Shown one piece after another: positions 6,961 to 64,000 of a stretch of DNA of 64,000 nt. The notes under the pieces were generated by a model, which saw only the letters and a list, made by a program, of their open reading frames with translations, had not been told where the DNA came from and did not search any database. The translations under genes were made by a program, and so were the position numbers. Numbering within the stretch: position 1 is the stretch's first letter; each line of letters starts with the position of its first letter. The stretch comes from a virus (taxonomy: Duplodnaviria; Caudoviricetes), in IMG/VR virus record IMGVR_UViG_2918987250_000001, positions 32,001 to 96,000 of that record, one strand, 5' to 3'.

Positions 6961-7329
6961 TGTAATTCTCCTGAGCTGCTATGGGGTGCTCGGGGCTGTT
7001 GCATGTTCTGGCTCTGCATTCGATTTCTCTTCATTCGATGCAGAGACGATATAGCAGCTAGAGCGCGGGTTTCGTCGGTGCCGTGCGATATGGCAGAGAA
7101 AACCCGTGTTTGTCGGATAAGTCAACGCTGACTTGACAGGTTCCCTCAAAATTTCCGACGCGAAGGTGTGGCGCTGACACAACCTAAGATGCCTCATCGA
7201 ATTTTTCCATCGAATCCGCATCCGATTCTCGATTGGTTCCCTCGACCAACTCGTAACGCCTGTGCTCTAAGCCGAATCGCTCAGCGGCCAGCCGTGGAGA
7301 CAACACTTGTTCCAATCGGAGTGTGAGGA

Positions 7330-13820: not shown

Positions 13821-13911
13821 GGCTCCTCTCTGTGTCTGTGTGCGCGTCAGTCGCTACAACGTGACTATAGCGAACGCTTCTCGGGATGTGAGTCAGTCCT
13901 GACTTATTCGT

Positions 13912-51226: not shown

Positions 51227-52510
51227 CTAGACAGAAACACCCAGCACCTTGATCTTGCGGACGGGGAACTTGAAGTCGATGCAGTAGCCCAGCGCGTCGG
51301 CCGGGTGCTCGACGCCGGCAGACTTGTCCACCTCGCGCGAGCCCGGCTTGTAGATCGTCTGCTCGAAGGCCGAGATCGTGTGCTTGCAGCCCCGGTCCAC
51401 CCGCAGCTTGATCGTGCCGTCGGCCGCCTTGAGCATCCGGTTCACCGCGTTGACGCGATCCGACACGGGCGGGTGCTTGCGCTTATACTGGAGCTTGCGG
51501 AAGCCGCCCTGGCGCAGGATGTCGAGGTCGCTCTCGCCGCGGCCGTGCCCGCGCTGCGCGCCGGCCGGGTCGGGGAAGATGATGACCTGCTTCTGCTGCT
51601 TGAAGAAGCGCCGATCGAGCTCCGTGCAGACCTCGGCCGTCGAGGAGCCGAACAGGATCGCCTCGCCGACGATCCAGACCTCGCCGTTGTCCTGCGGCTG
51701 CATGATGACCGAGGACATCGGGTCGATGTTGAAGTCCTGGCCCACCCAGATCGGCAGGTGCGGGTTGAAGGCGTAGTCGCCGACATGCTGGTTGCGGTCG
51801 AAGGCGTAGTAGACCCGGCCCGACATCGTCTCGAAGGACGCCTCGAACTCCTGACGGAAGCTCTTCTCGTCGAGGTTCTGGCGCGCGGCCGCGATCTCCT
51901 CGACCGGGATGAACGGCGAGGTGATGGTCGGGAACTGCCAGCTCTTGTGGTCGTTGCGGCGCAGCCGGCCCTTGCTGTCGCGGTAGGTCTCCCCGCGCTG
52001 GCCCTTCATGTAGACATCGTAGAGCCAGTTGTAGGCCTTCGGCGTCCCGATGATGATGGCCTTGCCGCGCGTCGAGGTGAGCGTCGGGTAGAGGACCTTG
52101 AACCAGGTGTCCGGCTCGATGTCCTGGGCCTCGTCGATGATGACCAGGTTGAGCGCGACGCCGCGCAGCGAGTCCGGCTTGTCCGCGCCCTTGAGCACGA
52201 TGCGTGAGCCGTTCACGAGCCGGATGGTGAGCCGGGTCTCGTTGACCGAGCGGATCCACTTGGCCGGGATCGAGTCCTTGATCTCGTCCCACATGATGCC
52301 GCGGGCCATCCCGTAGGTCGGCGCCACATACCAGATGAGCTGCTTGGGCTTGGCGGCAGCGGCCTGGACCGCGAGGATGCGCGCGAGCTGCGTCTTGCCC
52401 CAACGACGGCCGGCAACGACCACACGCACGCGGCGCGGGTCGTTGAAGACCTTCGACTGCCCCTTGTGGAGCGTGAACGTGTTGGGCGCGACGGTGAGCA
52501 GGCTACTCAT
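51227..52510 (-). CDS. terL: terminase large subunit
   Basis: AGRRWGKT, LRG, IIDEA, GTPK, FRQEFEASF, GQDFN, HPADALGY. Confidence 0.95.
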   Translation of the reverse strand: MSSLLTVAPNTFTLHKGQSKVFNDPRRVRVVVAGRRWGKTQLARILAVQAAAAKPKQLIWYVAPTYGMARGIMWDEIKDSIPAKWIRSVNETRLTIRLVNGSRIVLKGADKPDSLRGVALNLVIIDEAQDIEPDTWFKVLYPTLTSTRGKAIIIGTPKAYNWLYDVYMKGQRGETYRDSKGRLRRNDHKSWQFPTITSPFIPVEEIAAARQNLDEKSFRQEFEASFETMSGRVYYAFDRNQHVGDYAFNPHLPIWVGQDFNIDPMSSVIMQPQDNGEVWIVGEAILFGSSTAEVCTELDRRFFKQQKQVIIFPDPAGAQRGHGRGESDLDILRQGGFRKLQYKRKHPPVSDRVNAVNRMLKAADGTIKLRVDRGCKHTISAFEQTIYKPGSREVDKSAGVEHPADALGYCIDFKFPVRKIKVLGVSV

Positions 52511-53198
52511 CGTCGTCGTCCTCGATCACCGCCTCGTCGTCATCCTCGCCGGCGAGCGCGGCGATGGCCGCGTCGTCGCTCTCGTCGAGGATCTCGGCGT
52601 CGTCCTGCTCCTGGGCGTCGCGGCGCGCCTTGACCTCGGCATCGGTGAGGTCGCGGATCGTGAGGGCCGGCAGCTCCTTGTCATCGACCTCGCCATGCGC
52701 ATCGAGCAGGGTGAAGCGCTCGTCGCGGGCGGCGATGAGGATCTTCATCGTCCGCTCGAGGGTCTTGATGTTCTTCTCCTCGGTGGCGAACGGCCGGTCT
52801 TCCTTCTTGGCGTTGGCGATCAGCGCCATGGCCTGCCGGGCGATGGTCTCGGTCCAGAGCAGGTGCTCGCCCTTGGCCTTGTCGATCTTCTCCTTGCGCT
52901 CGCGCGTGAGCTCCTCGGCCGAGCGCTCGACGGCCTTCTTGGCCGCCTCGGTGGAGGCGGCCTTGACCTCGTGCGCCCGCGAGCCCCGGCGGATGCCGGC
53001 GCGCTTGATGCGCTTCATCAGCGTCTCGGGCTTGATCGAGAACCGGGAGCAGATCTCGGCAGCACTCGCGGTGCCGAGCTCCCAGATGTCCACGATCTGA
53101 GCCCACTCGGCCGGGGTGAGACGACGCGCGGAACCGGCCGCATCCTCGTCACCGAGGGCAGCATCGTCTTCCGGGTCCTTCGTCACCTCAGTCAGCAC
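52503..53198 (-). CDS. terS: terminase small subunit
   Basis: N-terminal HTH, overlaps the terL start, acidic tail. Confidence 0.75.
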   Translation of the reverse strand: MLTEVTKDPEDDAALGDEDAAGSARRLTPAEWAQIVDIWELGTASAAEICSRFSIKPETLMKRIKRAGIRRGSRAHEVKAASTEAAKKAVERSAEELTRERKEKIDKAKGEHLLWTETIARQAMALIANAKKEDRPFATEEKNIKTLERTMKILIAARDERFTLLDAHGEVDDKELPALTIRDLTDAEVKARRDAQEQDDAEILDESDDAAIAALAGEDDDEAVIEDDDDE

Positions 53199-53317: not shown

Positions 53318-53587
53318 TCACACCGATGATCCGGGGCGGAACTCCCGGTAAGCCTTCAGCGTCGGAGCGATGTAGAGCTTCCGCTTCTCTCCATACTTCC
53401 GGGAGAGGAAGCCGTGCTGCTCCAGATACCGGATGGAGAACTGAAGGGCCTGGGGCGTCACCGCCGGCCCGTAGCTCAGCGACGCCTTGAGGTCGTGAAA
53501 GGCGATGTCGCTGCCGGCGTCGGCCGCGGCGAGCACCAGACCCATGATCTCGTGCTGCTTGTCGGTGCCGGCGAAGGTCTCAGGCAT
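53318..53587 (-). CDS. small winged-helix protein
   Basis: TDKQHEIM...ALQFSIRYLEQHGFLSRK. Confidence 0.65.
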   Translation of the reverse strand: MPETFAGTDKQHEIMGLVLAAADAGSDIAFHDLKASLSYGPAVTPQALQFSIRYLEQHGFLSRKYGEKRKLYIAPTLKAYREFRPGSSV

Positions 53588-54536
53588 CGAACGGCACCTT
53601 CAGCTTCTCGGTCGGCTTCTGCCAGTCGAAGGCGGACAGCGGCAGGCGCTCCGGCATCTCCCGGCCGTGGTCGGGGTTCATCCAGACGCCGTAGAGCGGC
53701 GAGGCGAGCGTCATCTGGGCGATCGACTTCAACACCTCGCGCGGGGTCATGGCAGCGACACGCTCCCGGCCCTTGCCGCGGTTGTTGCCGGTCTTCTCGA
53801 GCGCCGAGTGCCGGTAGTAGAAGGCGCGGGCGTCGGCGACGATCACCTCGGCCTGCTCCGCGGGCAGGCGCGCCAGCTCCTCGACCATCCCCTCGAAGTC
53901 GCCGGGGCTGCTCTCGAAGTGGCTGCGGAAGAACTTGAGCCCCTTGTCGAACCGGTTGGCGTTCATCGGCTTGACGAACCGGAACCCTGCCTTCTGGCCG
54001 AAGTGGTTGAACTTCGACATCGACGACTGGATCTCCATGATCCGGTTGCCCTCGAGGCGCGAGACCAGGTTCATCATCCGGTAGCCGGCGCCGATCCCGC
54101 GGAACATCGTGTCGATCACGAAGCGGGAGATGACGCGGAAGTTCTGGTTGATGAAGAGGTAGCGGTCGGTGTTGGTGATGACCGTGTCGCCACCGCCCGG
54201 CTTGATCTTCGGGAACGCGACGTGGCGCTCCTTCAGCAGGCCCTTCGGGTTGGCCGTGACCAGGACGCCGATCGTCTGGCCGTCGAGCGTGAGCTTCCAG
54301 AAGCGCGGCCCGATGGAGAGGTTCTCGGCCTTGTAGTGCAGGTCGTGCAGGAGGTCCCAGTCGGCCTTGGTGCCCCGCTCCACGAACATCTGGTCGATCA
54401 GCGAAAACCGGGGCGCAGGGCTCTCGATGCGCTCGATCAGCGTCTCTGGTGCTTCGAACGCGCGGACGCGCTCACCGGGCAACGTCGCGAAGCCCAGCGC
54501 ATCTCCGGCGTCGAAGTTGATCGTGTCGAGCGACAT
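53580..54536 (-). CDS. GNAT-superfamily (Mom-like) acetyltransferase, candidate DNA-modifying enzyme
   Basis: LHY near the N-terminus; ISRFVIDTMFRGIGAG acetyl-CoA motif A; M.KFN.F..KAGF. Confidence 0.75.
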   Translation of the reverse strand: MSLDTINFDAGDALGFATLPGERVRAFEAPETLIERIESPAPRFSLIDQMFVERGTKADWDLLHDLHYKAENLSIGPRFWKLTLDGQTIGVLVTANPKGLLKERHVAFPKIKPGGGDTVITNTDRYLFINQNFRVISRFVIDTMFRGIGAGYRMMNLVSRLEGNRIMEIQSSMSKFNHFGQKAGFRFVKPMNANRFDKGLKFFRSHFESSPGDFEGMVEELARLPAEQAEVIVADARAFYYRHSALEKTGNNRGKGRERVAAMTPREVLKSIAQMTLASPLYGVWMNPDHGREMPERLPLSAFDWQKPTEKLKVPFDA

Positions 54537-54622
54537 CAGTGCGTTCCCGACGCTGCAAGGCCGATGGTGATGAGGAGAGCGAGCCCGGCGAGCCAGGCCC
54601 AGTCGAGGGCGCGAAGGTGCAT
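54536..54622 (-). CDS. 28-aa single-TM peptide (not in ORF track)
   Basis: MHLRALDWAWLAGLALLITIGLAASGTH*, TGATG overlaps on both sides. Confidence 0.55.
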   Translation of the reverse strand: MHLRALDWAWLAGLALLITIGLAASGTH

Positions 54623-54987
54623 CAGGCGTTCGGGTCCGGCCGGGTCCAGCGGGTGACGACCGGGCAGGACACGCCCTCGCGGCCGCGCAGCACGTCCCGG
54701 AGCTCCGGCGGCAGGTCATCCGCGCGCAGGTCCTCGAGGATCACCGTGCCGATGAGGAGCCCGCGCAGCATCGCCACCGCCGACGGCTTCATGGCGAGCT
54801 GCTCGAGCGAGGTCTCGACGAAGTGGGTGCCGGGGAGCTGCGCGGAGTAGGCCAGCCCCTTGCGACGCACCACGACCACGGAAACGGGCACCGGCACGGA
54901 GATCTTCTCGACCGGGATGCTGCCGACCGGGATATACGCCGCGGTGACGCTGCCGAAGTTGAGCCCGGAAAGGACGGAGTCGCTCAC
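54622..54987 (-). CDS. hypothetical protein
   Basis: GTGA-coupled start. Confidence 0.55.
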   Translation of the reverse strand: MSDSVLSGLNFGSVTAAYIPVGSIPVEKISVPVPVSVVVVRRKGLAYSAQLPGTHFVETSLEQLAMKPSAVAMLRGLLIGTVILEDLRADDLPPELRDVLRGREGVSCPVVTRWTRPDPNA

Positions 54988-55361
54988 GACACGACCTCCC
55001 AGTCCTGGGCCAGCAGGTCGGACTGCGAGCACAGCCACGGCACCCGGTTCTTGCAGGCCGTGAACATGAAGACGTAGGGCAGGCTCATCTTCGAGTGGGC
55101 GTCCGGCACCTGGAGCTCGAGATACATCCCCTTGCCGTTCCAGCCGGCGCGGGCGACACGCAGGCCGGCCCGGAGCGCGGCGACAGCCTGCCCGATGTTG
55201 AGCGCGCCGTTCTTCTCGACCGCGGCGTCCTCGAAGGAGACCTTCGTCACCTTGCGCACGAGCCCGAGCTCCTCGACGGGCGGCCGAGCGTTGCGCGGGG
55301 CGAACGTGATGCTGCCGATCGTCAGATCGCCGCCGGCCTTGACCTTCATGTCCACGTTCAT
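54984..55361 (-). CDS. DUF2829 / Tad2-like anti-Thoeris sponge protein
   Basis: IGQAVAAL.AG.RVARAGWNGKGMYL...PY......VPW..SQSDLLAQDW. Confidence 0.8.
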   Translation of the reverse strand: MNVDMKVKAGGDLTIGSITFAPRNARPPVEELGLVRKVTKVSFEDAAVEKNGALNIGQAVAALRAGLRVARAGWNGKGMYLELQVPDAHSKMSLPYVFMFTACKNRVPWLCSQSDLLAQDWEVVS

Positions 55362-56014
55362 GCTGCTGCCTTCTCGACTTCGACGCGCTCGCGGAAGCGC
55401 TTGGTGAGGGTGAGGGAGGGACCGAGCTCTTCCTTGAGGTCGGTGTGGGTGGTCGCGACCATCAGGGTCTTGCCGGAGCGGCGCGCGATCTTCTGGACGT
55501 TGGAGGCGACGACCTTCGCGGTGACGCGGTCGAGGACGGCGCCGAACTCGTCGGCAATCCAGACATCGGCGCCGGATTCCAGCACCTTCGCGAGCTTGAG
55601 GCGGTAGCGCTGGCCGTCGGAGAGCTCGGACGGCTTGCGGATGTAGATCCAGGCGTCGGAGATGCCGGCGAGCGCGAGGAGGTAGGTCGCCTCCTGGGTG
55701 TTCTTGCCGACCTGCTCGATCACCGGGCGCTCGTCGAGGCTGACGCCGTCGATGTCGGCGACGACCTTGCCCTCGGCGCGCATCATCGCCGTGAGCTCAC
55801 GCAGCAGCAGCGACTTGCCCGAGCCCGACTGGCCCTGGATGTAGACGACATCGCCGGCCCGGATCTCGACCTGGAGCCCGTCGTAGATGACGAACTCCTT
55901 GTCGGAGAGGCCCAGGCCGAAGCTCTCGGCGATCTCGAGCACGCGCGGGGTGCGCTCCACCGACGAGGTGAAGCTCTTGGAGATCGTGTAGGTGTTCTGG
56001 GTGATGATGGTCAT
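55358..56014 (-). CDS. soluble ABC-family ATPase
   Basis: GQSGSGKS, LSDGQRYR, IADEF, VATTH; no permease partner nearby. Confidence 0.88.
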   Translation of the reverse strand: MTIITQNTYTISKSFTSSVERTPRVLEIAESFGLGLSDKEFVIYDGLQVEIRAGDVVYIQGQSGSGKSLLLRELTAMMRAEGKVVADIDGVSLDERPVIEQVGKNTQEATYLLALAGISDAWIYIRKPSELSDGQRYRLKLAKVLESGADVWIADEFGAVLDRVTAKVVASNVQKIARRSGKTLMVATTHTDLKEELGPSLTLTKRFRERVEVEKAAA

Positions 56015-56484
56015 TCGTCGTCCGGCTGCTCGGCGTCGAGGTCGATGAAGACCGGCTGGTCAGACGCCTCGAAGGCGGCCGCGGTCGGGCTGTCGATGCG
56101 CGAGAGCACCTCGACCTTGCCCTCGCAGAGGTCGGTGAGGCTCCGCTCCAGCACCTTCAGGGAGCCGAGCATCCGGGCGGCGCCGTCGGCGACCGAGAGC
56201 CCGATGGGGAGCGAGACGTGCGCCTCGAACACCTTGTCGGCCTCGTTCCAGACGATCGCCGCGATGCCGCGGCAGAGACCCTGCTCGAAATCCTCGGCCA
56301 GGCCGGTGGCGACCTTCAGCGCCTCCTCGTCCACGGCGTCGGGCGCGACCTCTTCGATCTCGTCCTCGGCCGGCGGCGGCTCGTAGGGCGCGCGCGTGAA
56401 GATGTGGAACACCTTCGGGGCGTCCGGGTCGGCCGGCACCTCGGTGAAATACTTCTTGCGGATCTCGTCCAGGGCGTCGCTCAT
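56011..56484 (-). CDS. hypothetical acidic protein
   Basis: Coupled to the ABC ATPase gene. Confidence 0.6.
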   Translation of the reverse strand: MSDALDEIRKKYFTEVPADPDAPKVFHIFTRAPYEPPPAEDEIEEVAPDAVDEEALKVATGLAEDFEQGLCRGIAAIVWNEADKVFEAHVSLPIGLSVADGAARMLGSLKVLERSLTDLCEGKVEVLSRIDSPTAAAFEASDQPVFIDLDAEQPDDE

Positions 56485-56507
56485 GGGCGTGTCAGTCCTG
56501 ACTTACC

Positions 56508-57185
56508 TCAGATGCCGAACTCGGTGAGGAACGCCATGAAGGCTTCCGCACCCTTCTTGCCGGTCTCCGTCTGGATACGGCTCATGAAGGCCTTCACGCG
56601 CCGGCTGTCGGCGACCGTGACCTTGGAGAAGCCGAAGGCCTCGGCGACGCGCTGGGGCGCCTCGTCCACGGCGATGGCCGCGGCCTCGTTCTCTTCCTTC
56701 TGCTCCTCGACCGCCTCGGCGATGTCGTCCACGAAGGCGTCATCGAGCGTGGCCGCGAGGTCGTCGGTCATGAAGGAGAGCTCCTTCTCGTCGAACCCGA
56801 GCCAGTCCATCTCGAGCCCGGCGTCGGAGAGCGCCGTGAGGCCCTCGCGCACGAGGTCGGTGTCGTAGATCTGGTGCTGGACCCGGTTGTCCGAGAGGCG
56901 CAGCGCGTCGGCCTCGGCATCGGTGATGCCGTGCATGACGACGACCGGCACGGTCTTGCGCCCGAGCTCGATCGCAGCCAGGCGGCGCCCGTGGCCGGCG
57001 ATGATCTCGCCATCCTCGCGCACGACGATCGGCTGCGTCCAGCGGCCGGAGCCCTTGATCGCGGCAGCGAGCTTCTTCGTGCTGTCCTTGGAGTGCTTCT
57101 TCGCGTTCTTGGCGTAGGGCACCAGGCGCTCAACCGGCCAGTGCTCGACGACCATCTCACCGGGCGGGGTCTTAGGCGTCGTCAC
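56508..57185 (-). CDS. ParB/Srx N-terminal domain protein
   Basis: LVPYAKNAKKH, PIVV, IIAGHGRRLAA, LRLSDNR. Confidence 0.88.
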   Translation of the reverse strand: MTTPKTPPGEMVVEHWPVERLVPYAKNAKKHSKDSTKKLAAAIKGSGRWTQPIVVREDGEIIAGHGRRLAAIELGRKTVPVVVMHGITDAEADALRLSDNRVQHQIYDTDLVREGLTALSDAGLEMDWLGFDEKELSFMTDDLAATLDDAFVDDIAEAVEEQKEENEAAAIAVDEAPQRVAEAFGFSKVTVADSRRVKAFMSRIQTETGKKGAEAFMAFLTEFGI

Positions 57186-57360
57186 GGGACCATTCCTTCA
57201 GCATGTCGTAGAGATCGGCATCGCTCGGTTCGGTCTCATCGACCGTGGGCTCGAAGTTCTCTCCGGCCCGGCACCCGAGGCATTCCCGCTTGATGCGGGT
57301 CGGGTCGAAGTGCTCGCACTGGGAGCACTCATCGAAGCGAGGCTCGATCCTGATCTTCAC
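57172..57360 (-). CDS. small Cys-rich (CxxC..CxxC) protein
   Basis: ECSQCEHF...ECLGC. Confidence 0.6.
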   Translation of the reverse strand: MKIRIEPRFDECSQCEHFDPTRIKRECLGCRAGENFEPTVDETEPSDADLYDMLKEWSRDDA

Positions 57361-58073
57361 AGGGGCGCTCCGAAGCCGTCGTCCTCGCTGGGCTCGTCGT
57401 CTTCGACGGCCGGCGCAGCAGTCGCGCCCGAGAGCAGGAGGAAGCAGAGAGCGTCGCCGGCATTCATGAGGGCGGTGGCGCCCTCGAAACCCTGGCGCTT
57501 GGCCGTCCGGGTGATGAGGTCCGTCAGGCGCTCCGCATCGGCGAGCGGCACCTGGAAGCGCATCATCGCGTGGGTCTTGGGAGCGGCCGCCGCGGGAGCG
57601 ACTTCTTCCGGCTCGCTCGTTTCGGACTCGGTCTCGAGCAAATCGAGATCATCGAGCGCTATAGAAGACGACGAGAAGATCGACGTGATCTCCTCATCAG
57701 AGAAAGGCATCGTGTCCTGGATTTCCTCCCCGTTCACCAGCGTCTTGAGAAGAGCAGCCAGCTCGCTCGCGTCGTCCTCGCCGTAGCGGGCGTTGTCGAT
57801 GAGCCCGATCTTCTTGGCCTGATCGTCTGCGATCGGCCCGACGTTGATGACGGGGATCTCCTTCAGTCCCAGATCCAGGCAGACCTTCCAGCGGTGCTCG
57901 CCCCCGATAATCTCGAGGTCGCCGCCGGCCTCCCGCACCACGACGGGCTTGAACAGTCCGTGCTGACGAACGGACGCGGTGAGACGCGCCTCGTTGTCGG
58001 GGCTCATGTGGTTGGTGTTCCACGGATTCGGCCGCAGGGCCGTCGGCGGAAGGGTCAGGGCCTTGGGATACAT
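57357..58073 (-). CDS. ParB/Srx N-terminal domain protein
   Basis: LRPNPWNTN, KPVVVR, IIGGEHRW; likely start ATG at 58073. Confidence 0.88.
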   Translation of the reverse strand: MYPKALTLPPTALRPNPWNTNHMSPDNEARLTASVRQHGLFKPVVVREAGGDLEIIGGEHRWKVCLDLGLKEIPVINVGPIADDQAKKIGLIDNARYGEDDASELAALLKTLVNGEEIQDTMPFSDEEITSIFSSSSIALDDLDLLETESETSEPEEVAPAAAAPKTHAMMRFQVPLADAERLTDLITRTAKRQGFEGATALMNAGDALCFLLLSGATAAPAVEDDEPSEDDGFGAPL

Positions 58074-58137
58074 GGGAGGACGTGGTAAGTCAGCGCTGAC
58101 TGACTTGTCAATGCCTATCGGAGCGAAATGAGCGCCT

Positions 58138-61626: not shown

Positions 61627-61658
61627 CCATGTCTCCATGGCGCCAAGGCACCAAGAGG
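61627..61658. repeat. four tandem 8-bp repeats (CCAWGNNN) upstream of parA; candidate operator/centromere
   Basis: CCATGTCT CCATGGCG CCAAGGCA CCAAGAGG. Confidence 0.5.
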
Positions 61659-62321
61659 ATGACGGCCATGCAGACCCTCGCCGTGCTCTCCCAGAAGGGA
61701 GGCGTAGGCAAATCCACGATCGCTCGCCTCATGGCGACCGCCTATGCCGGCGCCCAGTGGCGCGTGAAGATCGCCGACTTCAACGTGAAGCAGCTCACCA
61801 GCGTGGACTGGTCCGCGAGCCGCATGGCCGCCGAGATCCAGCCCGAGGTGCCGGCCGAGGCCTTCTCCAGCGTCAAGCAGGCGCTCCGGCAGAACCTCCA
61901 CTACGACCTCATGGTCTTCGACGGGAAGCCCGACTCCGACGTGACCAGCCTGGAGATCGCCCGCGAGAGCGACGTGATCCTCCTGCCGGCCGGCGTGAGC
62001 GGTGACGACCTGCGCCCGCAGGTGAAGTTCGCCCACGAGCTCGTGTCCCGCGGCGTGGACCGGGCGCGCATCCACTTCGTCATCAACAAGACCCTCGAGA
62101 GCGCAGCCTCGATCTCCGACGCCCGCGGCTTCATCGAAGCGGCCGGCTACCGGGTGCTCGCGACGGATCTACCCTCCAAGACGGGCTACCAGCTCGCGCA
62201 GAACATGGGCCGCGCCATCTCCGAGAGCGCCTTTGCCACCCTGAACGAGCGGGCCGATGCTCTGGCCCAAGAGGTCGTGGATCTCATGACCACGCACGCC
62301 GGCACGAAGAGGGTCGCCTGA
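61659..62321 (+). CDS. parA: ParA partition ATPase (short, type Ib)
   Basis: SQKGGVGKST, IADF, MVFDGKP; no N-terminal HTH. Confidence 0.9.
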   Translation: MTAMQTLAVLSQKGGVGKSTIARLMATAYAGAQWRVKIADFNVKQLTSVDWSASRMAAEIQPEVPAEAFSSVKQALRQNLHYDLMVFDGKPDSDVTSLEIARESDVILLPAGVSGDDLRPQVKFAHELVSRGVDRARIHFVINKTLESAASISDARGFIEAAGYRVLATDLPSKTGYQLAQNMGRAISESAFATLNERADALAQEVVDLMTTHAGTKRVA

Positions 62322-62880: not shown

Positions 62881-62977
62881 GGAATATGTGCTGCCGAGAC
62901 CCGAGGCATAGCCCTCGAGCAGACGCGATTTATCTAAGACTTCGTAACTTTACGCTAACTTTTCCGCAAAACACTAT

Positions 62978-63013: not shown

Positions 63014-63709
63014 TTATGCGAAGTCTTCAAACATTAGATCATTGCACACTGCGAGAAACTGCTTTAACAGTGCGAACTCTTCGAAGCGATAATAGACGAT
63101 ATGTGCATTTGCGGTGCGTTGCGCTTCGCTTACATCATGCGTCTTATTCGCTAGATGCTTGACGATAGCGACGTGATAATCTTGCGCATCTTTGGTGCAA
63201 GCGAGCACTTCGACATAAACGTCTTGCATGATAAGCGCAGTGTAGCGCTCTGACATAGCGTCAACGTTATCGAGTTGCGTCGCGTCAGTGCGCATGTCAG
63301 AGAAAGCGTTAAACGCTTCTTCGTTAAAGCTGCAATCTATGCGATATTGCGCTTCGACGTTGCTAAGCGCGCGCTCTAGCGTGTGATGCACCGACGAAAG
63401 CAACACATTGATGCTTGACGCTTCGCTGTCGTTTTCGACGTAGCACGTCTCACAGATAAACGCGATGTGTTCAGCGTCGCTGAAAGTCACCGCAAAATAG
63501 TTGCTGTCGTTTTCGTTAGAGAACGTCGCGACAGAGCACAAGTCGTTATAGTCTTGAAGCGACAGCATCACAGGTGTTTTTGTGTCGTTGAGCTTGTTAT
63601 GAATGAAGCGCGCGAAGTCTAGCGCGACAACATCACGTTGCGCTTTCAGCGGTGCATCAGCGATCTCGAAAGAGACAGCATTCATCTCATGAATATCAGC
63701 GAGCGTCAT
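63014..63709 (-). CDS. hypothetical protein lacking Gly and Trp (GG/CC-depleted region)
   Basis: 231-aa ORF with 0 G, 0 W and 2 P; own promoter. Confidence 0.75.
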   Translation of the reverse strand: MTLADIHEMNAVSFEIADAPLKAQRDVVALDFARFIHNKLNDTKTPVMLSLQDYNDLCSVATFSNENDSNYFAVTFSDAEHIAFICETCYVENDSEASSINVLLSSVHHTLERALSNVEAQYRIDCSFNEEAFNAFSDMRTDATQLDNVDAMSERYTALIMQDVYVEVLACTKDAQDYHVAIVKHLANKTHDVSEAQRTANAHIVYYRFEEFALLKQFLAVCNDLMFEDFA

Positions 63710-63786: not shown

Positions 63787-64000
63787 TTATTTCTGCGCTT
63801 CAAGCACTTTCTTCGCGCGATCAATGCGCATCACATGCGTGTGACGCTCGCGCTTGAAGCGCTCGACGTTTGCAAGATGCGCTTTATGCGTCACGTCTAG
63901 TTCAGCGGAAATCTCAGCTAGACGCTTTTGCGATGCGTCAAGCATCGCTTGCGCGCGCTCGACTGTAAGCGCATTCTTGCGCTTGATATTGTTCGCTTCG
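63787..64000 (-). CDS. C-terminal part of a hypothetical coiled-coil protein
   Basis: EANNIKRKNALTVERAQAML...KKVLEAQK*; no G, P or W in 70 aa. Confidence 0.65.
   Translation of the reverse strand, partial: EANNIKRKNALTVERAQAMLDASQKRLAEISAELDVTHKAHLANVERFKRERHTHVMRIDRAKKVLEAQK

What the first reader, a model, noticed from the sequence alone, without database searches (positions are those of the whole stretch)
53318..58073. Packaging-linked ParB-ParB-ABC ATPase-GNAT operon: candidate DNA base-modification system behind the GG/CC avoidance
Seen: one tightly coupled minus-strand operon runs into terS/terL: ParB-N, CxxC protein, ParB-N, acidic protein, ABC ATPase with no permease, DUF2829, small ORFs, GNAT, wHTH. 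Established: Mu Mom is a GNAT-fold enzyme that modifies phage DNA, and ParB-like domains occur next to terminases with DNA-modifying enzymes in many phages. Inference: the operon adds an acyl-type modification during late replication or packaging. The GG/CC-free early genes and promoters in the same genome point to G in GG (or C in CC) as the target rather than Mom's adenine. Modifier plus modification-free genomic zones would be an integrated anti-restriction system that I do not recognise as characterised.
Basis: partly seen in the sequence, partly recalled or inferred. Interest (0 to 1): 0.88.

Follow-up and report, generated by a model that had tools for sequence, protein, structure and literature searches.

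The report
Phage acyltransferase operon and CC-free island
A family of plasmid-like phages carries an untested enzyme set that probably tags its own DNA at CC sequences, and it keeps its earliest genes and a class of promoters free of CC and GG, even giving up glycine and tryptophan, which points to the probable target of an uncharacterised DNA modification.

Summary
The operon is real. ParB-ParB-ABC ATPase-GNAT-wHTH before terS/terL is core in SSU5/RHEph10/nickie-like phage-plasmids (967 plasmid records hit). The Tad2-like, acidic and small ORFs are cargo. ABC+GNAT was already predicted to acylate DNA (cited in PMC7824862) but is untested. The fold is GNAT, no closer to Mom than to other GNATs.

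The GG/CC island is real: 30 CC against about 245 expected. About 59 of 89 operon-bearing relatives have a CC-word-free island, and the banned word differs by lineage. The island ends at a conserved site that published terminal-repeat lengths place at the virion end. Internal promoters are purged too. Change of the banned word tracks GNAT divergence (rho 0.36) but not five neighbouring genes. Strand bias favours C over G.

Against: about a third of operon carriers lack a clear island, one Methylobacterium clade relaxed it with the operon intact, gene trees are congruent, and no modified base has been shown.

Best reading (about 0.5): a phage self-mark on CC words, with start-up DNA kept free of it. 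This scan noted both the operon and the island before, on other genomes.

The parts
57357..58073 (-). ParB-N protein 1 (core; no HTH matched)
   Evidence: PF02195 E 3e-14, phrog_723; present in all 89 scored loci
57172..57360 (-). 62-aa CxxC-CxxC miniprotein (seen in alphaproteobacterial members)
56508..57185 (-). ParB-N protein 2 (core)
   Evidence: PF02195 E 6e-7, phrog_930
56011..56484 (-). acidic protein, variable (83% to L001, 37% to L003, no match in most relatives)
55358..56014 (-). stand-alone ABC ATPase (core) with intact Walker A, signature, Walker B and H-loop
   Evidence: PF00005, phrog_293; invariant columns
54984..55361 (-). Tad2-like (DUF2829) protein; cargo, absent from many island-bearing relatives
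   Evidence: PF11195 E 4e-22
54622..54987 (-). 121-aa ORF, unknown, matched only in the Methylobacterium clade
54536..54622 (-). 28-aa hydrophobic micro-ORF coupled to the GNAT start
53580..54536 (-). GNAT acyltransferase (core; candidate writer) with invariant HY, beta3-beta4 insert and a helical insertion
   Evidence: phrog_886; 947 homologues; model pLDDT 84; GNAT fold Z 10-11.8
53318..53587 (-). small winged-helix-like protein (core)
   Evidence: phrog_900; the fold was not modelled here
51227..53198 (-). terminase small and large subunits, adjacent and co-oriented
58088..58101 (.). operator-like palindrome AGTCAG-NN-CTGACT before the operon; further copies at 56491 and 53190; about 30 in the genome
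58138..59829 (+). divergent SF2 helicase, always next to the operon (used as anchor)
62905..62942 (-). conserved bipartite site (AAGTCTTAGA, then a GGG..TGCC-like box about 20 nt on) at the island edge; inferred end of the terminal repeat
   Evidence: PMC12509600
62925..64000 (.). GG/CC-free island, only ACC/GGT tolerated. It continues beyond the window to genome 97300, where G000:C1:96323-96943 (minus strand) encodes a 206-aa Gly/Trp-free winged-helix protein, a 31% paralogue of a normal gene at genome 99189-100163
63014..63709 (-). 231-aa island protein with no Gly and no Trp
63787..64000 (-). 138-aa island protein with no Gly or Trp (starts beyond the window, genome 96203)
7011..7070 (-). 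example of the CC(C)G-N~10-GCTATA promoter class with a GG/CC-free core; others at 13871 and 17300

Best explanation
The core operon is a post-replicative DNA-marking machine. The GNAT puts an acyl or aminoacyl group on the phage's own DNA at a short CC-containing word (here BCC, with ACC weakly hit). The ABC ATPase and the two ParB-N proteins load or activate it late in infection, near packaging. The mark would shield virion DNA from host nucleases but would hinder host RNA polymerase until the DNA has been copied. So the phage has purged the target word from (a) the genes at the tip of its long terminal repeat, which must be read from marked DNA straight after injection, including a recoded copy of a winged-helix DNA-binding protein, and (b) the cores of a class of internal promoters. 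The marked base is more likely C than G, because CC on the template strand is the strictest ban. Shown: anatomy, fold, conservation, island, lineage-specific words, promoter purge, statistical co-variation. Inferred: terminal position, DNA as substrate, the base, the acyl donor, timing, and the roles of ABC and ParB.
For: GNAT fold with motif A. Its nearest Atlas structures outside its own family include ABC-GNAT fusions (TM 0.68), and a fused ABC-GNAT sits in the same slot in one family clade. That pair is a predicted base acylator (PMC7824862). ParB-N proteins activate another phage DNA modifier (PMC13229309). No N6/N4 or C5 methyltransferase in the genome. About 59 of 89 operon-bearing loci have an island beyond anything seen on the control side, with enzyme-like words: all CC, BCC, VCC, YCC, CC[GT]. 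Word distance tracks GNAT distance (rho 0.51; partial 0.36-0.44 given helicase or terL, the reverse -0.09 and -0.17). On a fixed tree, word change correlates with GNAT rate excess (rho 0.36, p 0.004) but not with ABC, ParB1, ParB2, helicase or terL. Internal promoters far from the ends are purged in three genomes (2, 4 and 5 GG/CC against 42-76 expected). Synonymous, junction and intergenic GG/CC are lost too, so the ban is on nucleotides. Eleven flanking genes lack GG on the coding strand only, against 0 of 814 controls; an oppositely oriented island gene obeys the same rule. The island edge matches published terminal-repeat lengths.
Against: No modified base has been shown. 19 of 89 operon carriers show no island and about 11 only a weak one, SSU5 among them. 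A Methylobacterium clade regained 16-18 GG and about 50 CC in the island gene with an intact operon (GNAT dN/dS 0.31), and L001 has the same GNAT insert as that clade yet a strict island. Gene trees are congruent: 12-13 label changes on every gene. Mantel p-values ignore kinship, and the branch test is about 0.05 after 12 comparisons and weaker on all loci (rho 0.19-0.23). L103 bans the same word (VCC) as L223 although its ABC-GNAT is a distant fused form. Unrelated ABC-GNAT phages (Jace, P12024S) show no island. One nickie gene shows the opposite strand bias. The promoter purge has no host-promoter control.
Confidence: 0.5

Rival explanations
1. The island is a T5-like leading terminal repeat purged of sites for a host defence, or for another phage enzyme; the operon, DNA modifier or not, is linked to it only by shared ancestry.
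For: The island lies at the inferred virion end. T5-like phages resist restriction only if the sites lie outside the terminal repeats (PMC10644984). The operon is core, so co-occurrence is expected. Congruent trees, the relaxed clade and L103 fit. Several core genes remain of unknown function.
Against: Internal promoters are purged as well. Words differ between close relatives on one host genus (Acinetobacter, Methylobacterium). Rate coupling is seen for the GNAT only. I know of no host defence with a two-base target (own knowledge). rIIA/rIIB and Tad2 were tested as drivers and fail.
Confidence: 0.22
2. The GNAT acylates a protein or tRNA (packaging motor, host factor, Gly-tRNA), and ParB/ABC regulate packaging; there is no DNA mark.
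For: The top fold matches are generic protein and small-molecule GNATs, tied with Mom. Canonical acyl-CoA motif A. Gly-free proteins would escape a Gly-tRNA block.
Against: Synonymous and non-coding GG/CC are purged on both strands, which a tRNA or protein target cannot explain. GNAT-word co-variation.
Confidence: 0.14
3. The constraint is on RNA: early transcripts avoid GG to escape a GG-specific RNase or RNA-modifying toxin, and the operon is unrelated.
For: Coding-strand GG is the strictest ban, and flanking genes lose only GG. Ribosome-binding sites in the island avoid GG.
Against: The core island also lacks CC on the coding strand and in non-transcribed DNA, including the promoter spacer upstream of the -10 box.
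Confidence: 0.08
4. The same self-mark model, but on G of GG, or a structural rather than enzymatic constraint on terminal DNA.
For: GG and CC are one duplex word, so sequence alone cannot separate them; one nickie gene has the opposite bias.
Against: A polymerase-blocking G mark would make coding-strand CC the strictest ban, and the reverse is seen. Lineage-specific words argue against DNA structure.
Confidence: 0.06

Closest known systems
Predicted ABC ATPase-GNAT nucleobase acylation system (Iyer et al. 2013, as cited in PMC7824862; COG2401/MK0520-type annotation)
   Same: ABC ATPase coupled to a GNAT in phages; split here, fused in one family clade, in Jace and in P12024S
   Different: That system has no known target or product. 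Here there are two ParB-N proteins and a wHTH, and the island and promoters suggest a target word. I could not read the 2013 paper itself.
Phage Mu Mom (6-NcmdA; PMC13219725)
   Same: GNAT fold (8bv8, Z 11.3, rmsd 3.2, 141 aligned), an HY pair near the N-terminus, a helical insertion, a proposed post-replicative sequence-specific mark
   Different: No sequence match to any PDB chain; the fold score ties with generic GNATs; Mom is one enzyme, uses Gly-tRNA and marks A in SAS, while the evidence here points to CC words and an ATPase/ParB-assisted machine.
ParB-dependent phage thymine dioxygenases (PMC13229309)
   Same: ParB-N proteins without a DNA-binding domain next to a DNA modifier, often near terminases
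   Different: Different catalytic fold and base; one ParB rather than two
TmcA/NAT10 cytidine N4-acetyltransferases
   Same: ATPase plus GNAT acting on cytidine in a CC context (own knowledge); weak Foldseek hits, E 2e-4 to 4e-4
   Different: RNA substrate, helicase-type ATPase, TM only 0.28-0.29; a lead only
T5/BF23 terminal repeats with pre-early genes (PMC10644984)
   Same: Long direct terminal repeat with early genes and purged target sites
   Different: There the purge concerns host restriction sites; here a two- or three-base word is removed at the cost of Gly, Trp and Pro, and internal promoters are purged too

Membership tests
ABC ATPase-GNAT predicted DNA acylation system | ABC ATPase with intact motifs and no permease | tested here: met
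ABC ATPase-GNAT predicted DNA acylation system | GNAT adjacent to or fused with the ABC ATPase, related to the fused family | tested here: met
   same operon in the 89 scored loci; Atlas TM 0.68 to ABC-GNAT fusions; fusion in the same slot; sequence-profile link to Jace gp86 weak, E 0.04
ABC ATPase-GNAT predicted DNA acylation system | acylates a DNA base | not testable with these tools
   never shown for any member in the papers found
Mom family | GNAT fold | tested here: met
Mom family | sequence homology to Mu Mom | tested here: inconclusive
   a 120-sequence profile finds no PDB chain at E<=1, but the profile is shallow; Mom ties with other GNATs by fold
Mom family | catalytic H58/Y59, R111, S124 and HTH-like insertion | tested here: inconclusive
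   invariant H67-Y68 and R138 and a helical insert lie at plausible positions; 13 residues after R138 is G, and S only in some lineages; no residue-level superposition available
Mom family | single stand-alone enzyme | tested here: not met
   found with ABC and two ParB-N genes throughout the family
Mom family | adenine in SAS as target, Gly-tRNA as donor | not testable with these tools
   the purged words in the island are CC words
ABC transporter | permease or substrate-binding partner | tested here: not met
   none in the operon; only a 28-aa hydrophobic ORF
ParABS partition ParB | HTH DNA-binding domain and a linked ParA | tested here: not met
   only ParB_N matches; ParA lies apart at 61629-62321 with its own small partner
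Tad2-like (PF11195) | Pfam match above cut-off | tested here: met
   78.9 bits against 25; signal-molecule binding not tested
SSU5/RHEph10/nickie-like phage-plasmids | shared core and synteny, plasmid functions (ParA, RepC orthologue) | tested here: met
T5-like site-purged terminal repeat | island inside a long direct terminal repeat | tested here: inconclusive
   strongly implied for B1VFA and V1VFA-S by a 333-nt offset against a 334-nt published difference; not read from raw reads; inferred for this genome by synteny

The most novel reading that the evidence does not exclude
A widespread phage family marks cytosine in CC words of its own DNA with a new acyl group, using an ATP-driven ParB/ABC/GNAT machine. 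The mark silences host transcription, so the phage starts from a mark-free terminal sector encoding a recoded winged-helix activator, which may read the single fixed CC kept upstream of otherwise CC-free promoters. The enzyme's specificity could then be read from the genome, lineage by lineage.
Probability: 0.3. Interest if true: 0.9.

Novelty: new variant of a known kind. Interest (0 to 1): 0.72.

Why it matters
The ABC-GNAT module was predicted in 2013 to modify DNA, and I found no report of its target. The island supplies a specific guess (base, word, lineage variants) that can be tested at once in cultured phages (V1VFA-S, B1VFA, RHEph10, nickie, SSU5, Cyrano). The operon is in nearly a thousand sequenced phage-plasmids of Klebsiella, Escherichia, Acinetobacter and others. 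If true, it is a new DNA base modification, a set of natural specificity variants useful as tools, and a case where a phage's own mark forces proteins to evolve without Gly, Trp and Pro.

Tried and rejected
rIIA/rIIB as driver: present here, in pAMS5a and RHEph10 and absent from the relaxed M. oryzae plasmid, but rIIA was also not found in V1VFA-S and nickie, which have strict islands. Tad2-like gene as driver: missing from several strict-island phages. A GNAT residue (W128 or M133) explaining relaxation: W128 fails, since L021 and L001 are strict with W; M133 was not resolved. A longer banned word in the relaxed clade: only GGCC and CCGG remain low, which may be lag in decay. Islands in unrelated ABC-GNAT phages Jace and P12024S: none. 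Fused-form relatives L192 and L196: no island in the DNA held, but the loci are too short to judge. Parsimony on gene trees did not separate the GNAT from the backbone. The fold search could not place the GNAT nearer Mom than other GNATs. PADLOC and NCBIfam gave no match for the GNAT or island proteins. The island protein has no named look-alike in the Atlas. Iyer 2013 and the 2020 ABC classification paper were not held. The raw count of loci with the degenerate 9-mer (64 of 89) is inflated by chance hits; only the roughly 44 cases at an island edge are used.
Full report
Setting. The window is bases 32001-96000 of a 117,522-bp virus record, 66% G+C. Its closest relatives are Methylobacterium plasmids pAMS5a and H33R-06 unnamed2, then Rhizobium phages V1VFA-S and RHEph10, Pseudomonas phage nickie and Salmonella phage SSU5. 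It is an SSU5/RHEph10/nickie-like phage-plasmid with its own ParA and a RepC orthologue.

The operon. Comparison separates core from cargo. Helicase (divergent), ParB, ParB, ABC, GNAT, wHTH, terS, terL recur in SSU5, V1VFA-S, RHEph10, BUCTxx99, JGB6 and nearly all family loci long enough to judge. The GNAT hits 31 phage and 967 plasmid records. The CxxC, acidic, Tad2-like and two small ORFs come and go. The ABC domain keeps all catalytic motifs and has no permease. The 318-aa protein folds confidently (pLDDT 84) as a GNAT with a basic beta3-beta4 insert and a helical insertion. Mu Mom scores Z 11.3, tied with many unrelated GNATs, and no PDB sequence matches. Its nearest predicted structures outside its own family include ABC-GNAT fusions, and one family clade has such a fusion in the same slot. 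A GNAT coupled to an ABC ATPase was already predicted to make an uncharacterised acyl modification of a DNA base (PMC7824862). ParB-N proteins are shown activators of another phage DNA modifier (PMC13229309). So 'candidate DNA modifier' is reasonable but not new.

The island. GG/CC is ordinary (O/E about 0.7-0.9) everywhere except from window 62925 to genome 97300. There 30 CC remain on both strands against about 245 expected, 26 of them ACC. The three proteins have no Gly or Trp. One (genome 96323-96943, just beyond the window) is a 31% paralogue of a normal gene 3 kb away. Its 41 homologues, 40-78% identical, have no Trp and mostly no Gly, and it ends in a winged helix (Z 7-8, a common fold). 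V1VFA-S and nickie have over 1.1 kb with no GG and no CC at all, pAMS5a nearly so over 1.5 kb, and RHEph10 nearly so. Of 89 non-redundant operon-bearing loci, about 59 have an island scoring -28 or lower, while the operon side never passes -20. The banned word differs: all CC, BCC, VCC, YCC, CC[GT], and CCT in SSU5.

Where the island lies. In about 44 loci the purge stops at a conserved site, AAGTC[TC]TAG followed by a second box. B1VFA and V1VFA-S have published terminal repeats of 3,605 and 3,939 bp (PMC12509600). Stepping those lengths back from the site lands on homologous bases within 1 nt. The indel on the island side is 333 nt, against 806-810 on the other side. The island is therefore very probably the tip of the terminal repeat, within the first few kb to enter the cell whichever end leads. 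This is inference from published lengths, not from reads.

Is the operon behind it? For: a promoter class scattered through the genome has 2 GG/CC in 12 cores against 42-52 expected, and pAMS5a and even the relaxed M. oryzae element show the same. That fits a genome-wide self-mark better than a defence met only by leading DNA. No methyltransferase is encoded. Word distance follows GNAT distance better than helicase or terL distance. On a fixed tree, branches where the word changes show excess GNAT change (rho 0.36, p 0.004 among island-bearing clades; 0.19-0.23 over all loci), and none of five neighbouring genes does.

Against: the trees are congruent and the statistics are modest once kinship and multiple tests are allowed for. 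About a third of carriers have a weak island or none. A Methylobacterium clade has refilled the island gene with synonymous GG/CC while the operon stays intact under purifying selection, and L001 shares its GNAT insert yet is strict. L103 bans VCC with a distant fused enzyme, as L223 does with a split one. Jace and P12024S have ABC-GNAT and no island. The operon is not sufficient, and the link is about even odds.

Which base? Flanking genes lose GG on the coding strand only (11 genes against 0 of 814 controls). L078's reversed island gene has 0 GG and 10 CC on its coding strand. Here the few Gly codons in a flanking gene are all GGT, the tolerated word. If the cost is to RNA polymerase, template CC is the strictest ban and C is the marked base. 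A nickie gene shows the opposite bias, and an RNA-level GG ban gives the same asymmetry, so this is a lean, not a result.

Verdict. The operon belongs with the predicted ABC-GNAT DNA-acylation systems and is not a Mom member on present evidence. What is new is the terminal-repeat island, the promoter purge and the lineage-specific word, which make the old prediction directly testable. Earlier notes of this scan reported the operon, the island and the sufficiency problem in other genomes; they are leads, not support. The terminal-repeat placement and the GNAT rate test were done here.

Noticed in passing
whole genome; window 3587, 13891, 17023, 24806, 53190, 56491, 58088, 63774 and others: About 30 copies of the palindrome AGTCAG-NN-CTGACT in intergenic DNA, often over the transcription start; a likely repressor operator network.
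   Followed up: partly
window 7055, 13871, 17300; genome 2165-29359 and 109337: Promoter class with one fixed CC(C)G about 10 nt upstream of GCTATA and no other GG/CC; the fixed CC may be an activator site, in the manner of T4 MotA boxes (own knowledge).
   Followed up: partly
genome 97300-99200 (L011:3300-5200): GC-rich spacers full of CCATGG-like repeats and a repeated CCGTTCCTA motif flank the island genes here and in relatives; the opposite composition to the island, perhaps terminal-repeat processing or injection signals.
   Followed up: no
L017:43134-45899 (Gordonia/Rhodococcus phage Jace): ParB, fused ABC-GNAT, aspartate decarboxylase and a gene that by eye resembles a CoA transferase, close to terS; suggests a beta-alanyl or related acyl donor in that lineage.
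   Followed up: no
L103:7437-9124; also L170, L192, L196, L134: A family clade has a fused ABC-GNAT (37-39% to P12024S and Jace) in place of the split pair.
   Followed up: partly
L009:5167-9242: rIIA/rIIB-like pair, patchy in the family.
   Followed up: yes
L016 (Xanthomonas phage JGB6): Many core genes are annotated in pieces (terminase, capsid, ribonucleotide reductase, helicase), typical of sequencing error; whether modified bases contribute is unknown.
   Followed up: no
L007:42465-42788 and L015:34063-34743: Island genes are missed (nickie) or seem annotated on the wrong strand (RHEph10 gp097) in public records.
   Followed up: no
L023:7593-10309 and L025:19505-21297: The relaxed M. oryzae element carries a TcmP + Gp37/Gp68 pair and two methyltransferase-domain genes not seen in this genome; they might bear on its relaxed island.
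   Followed up: no
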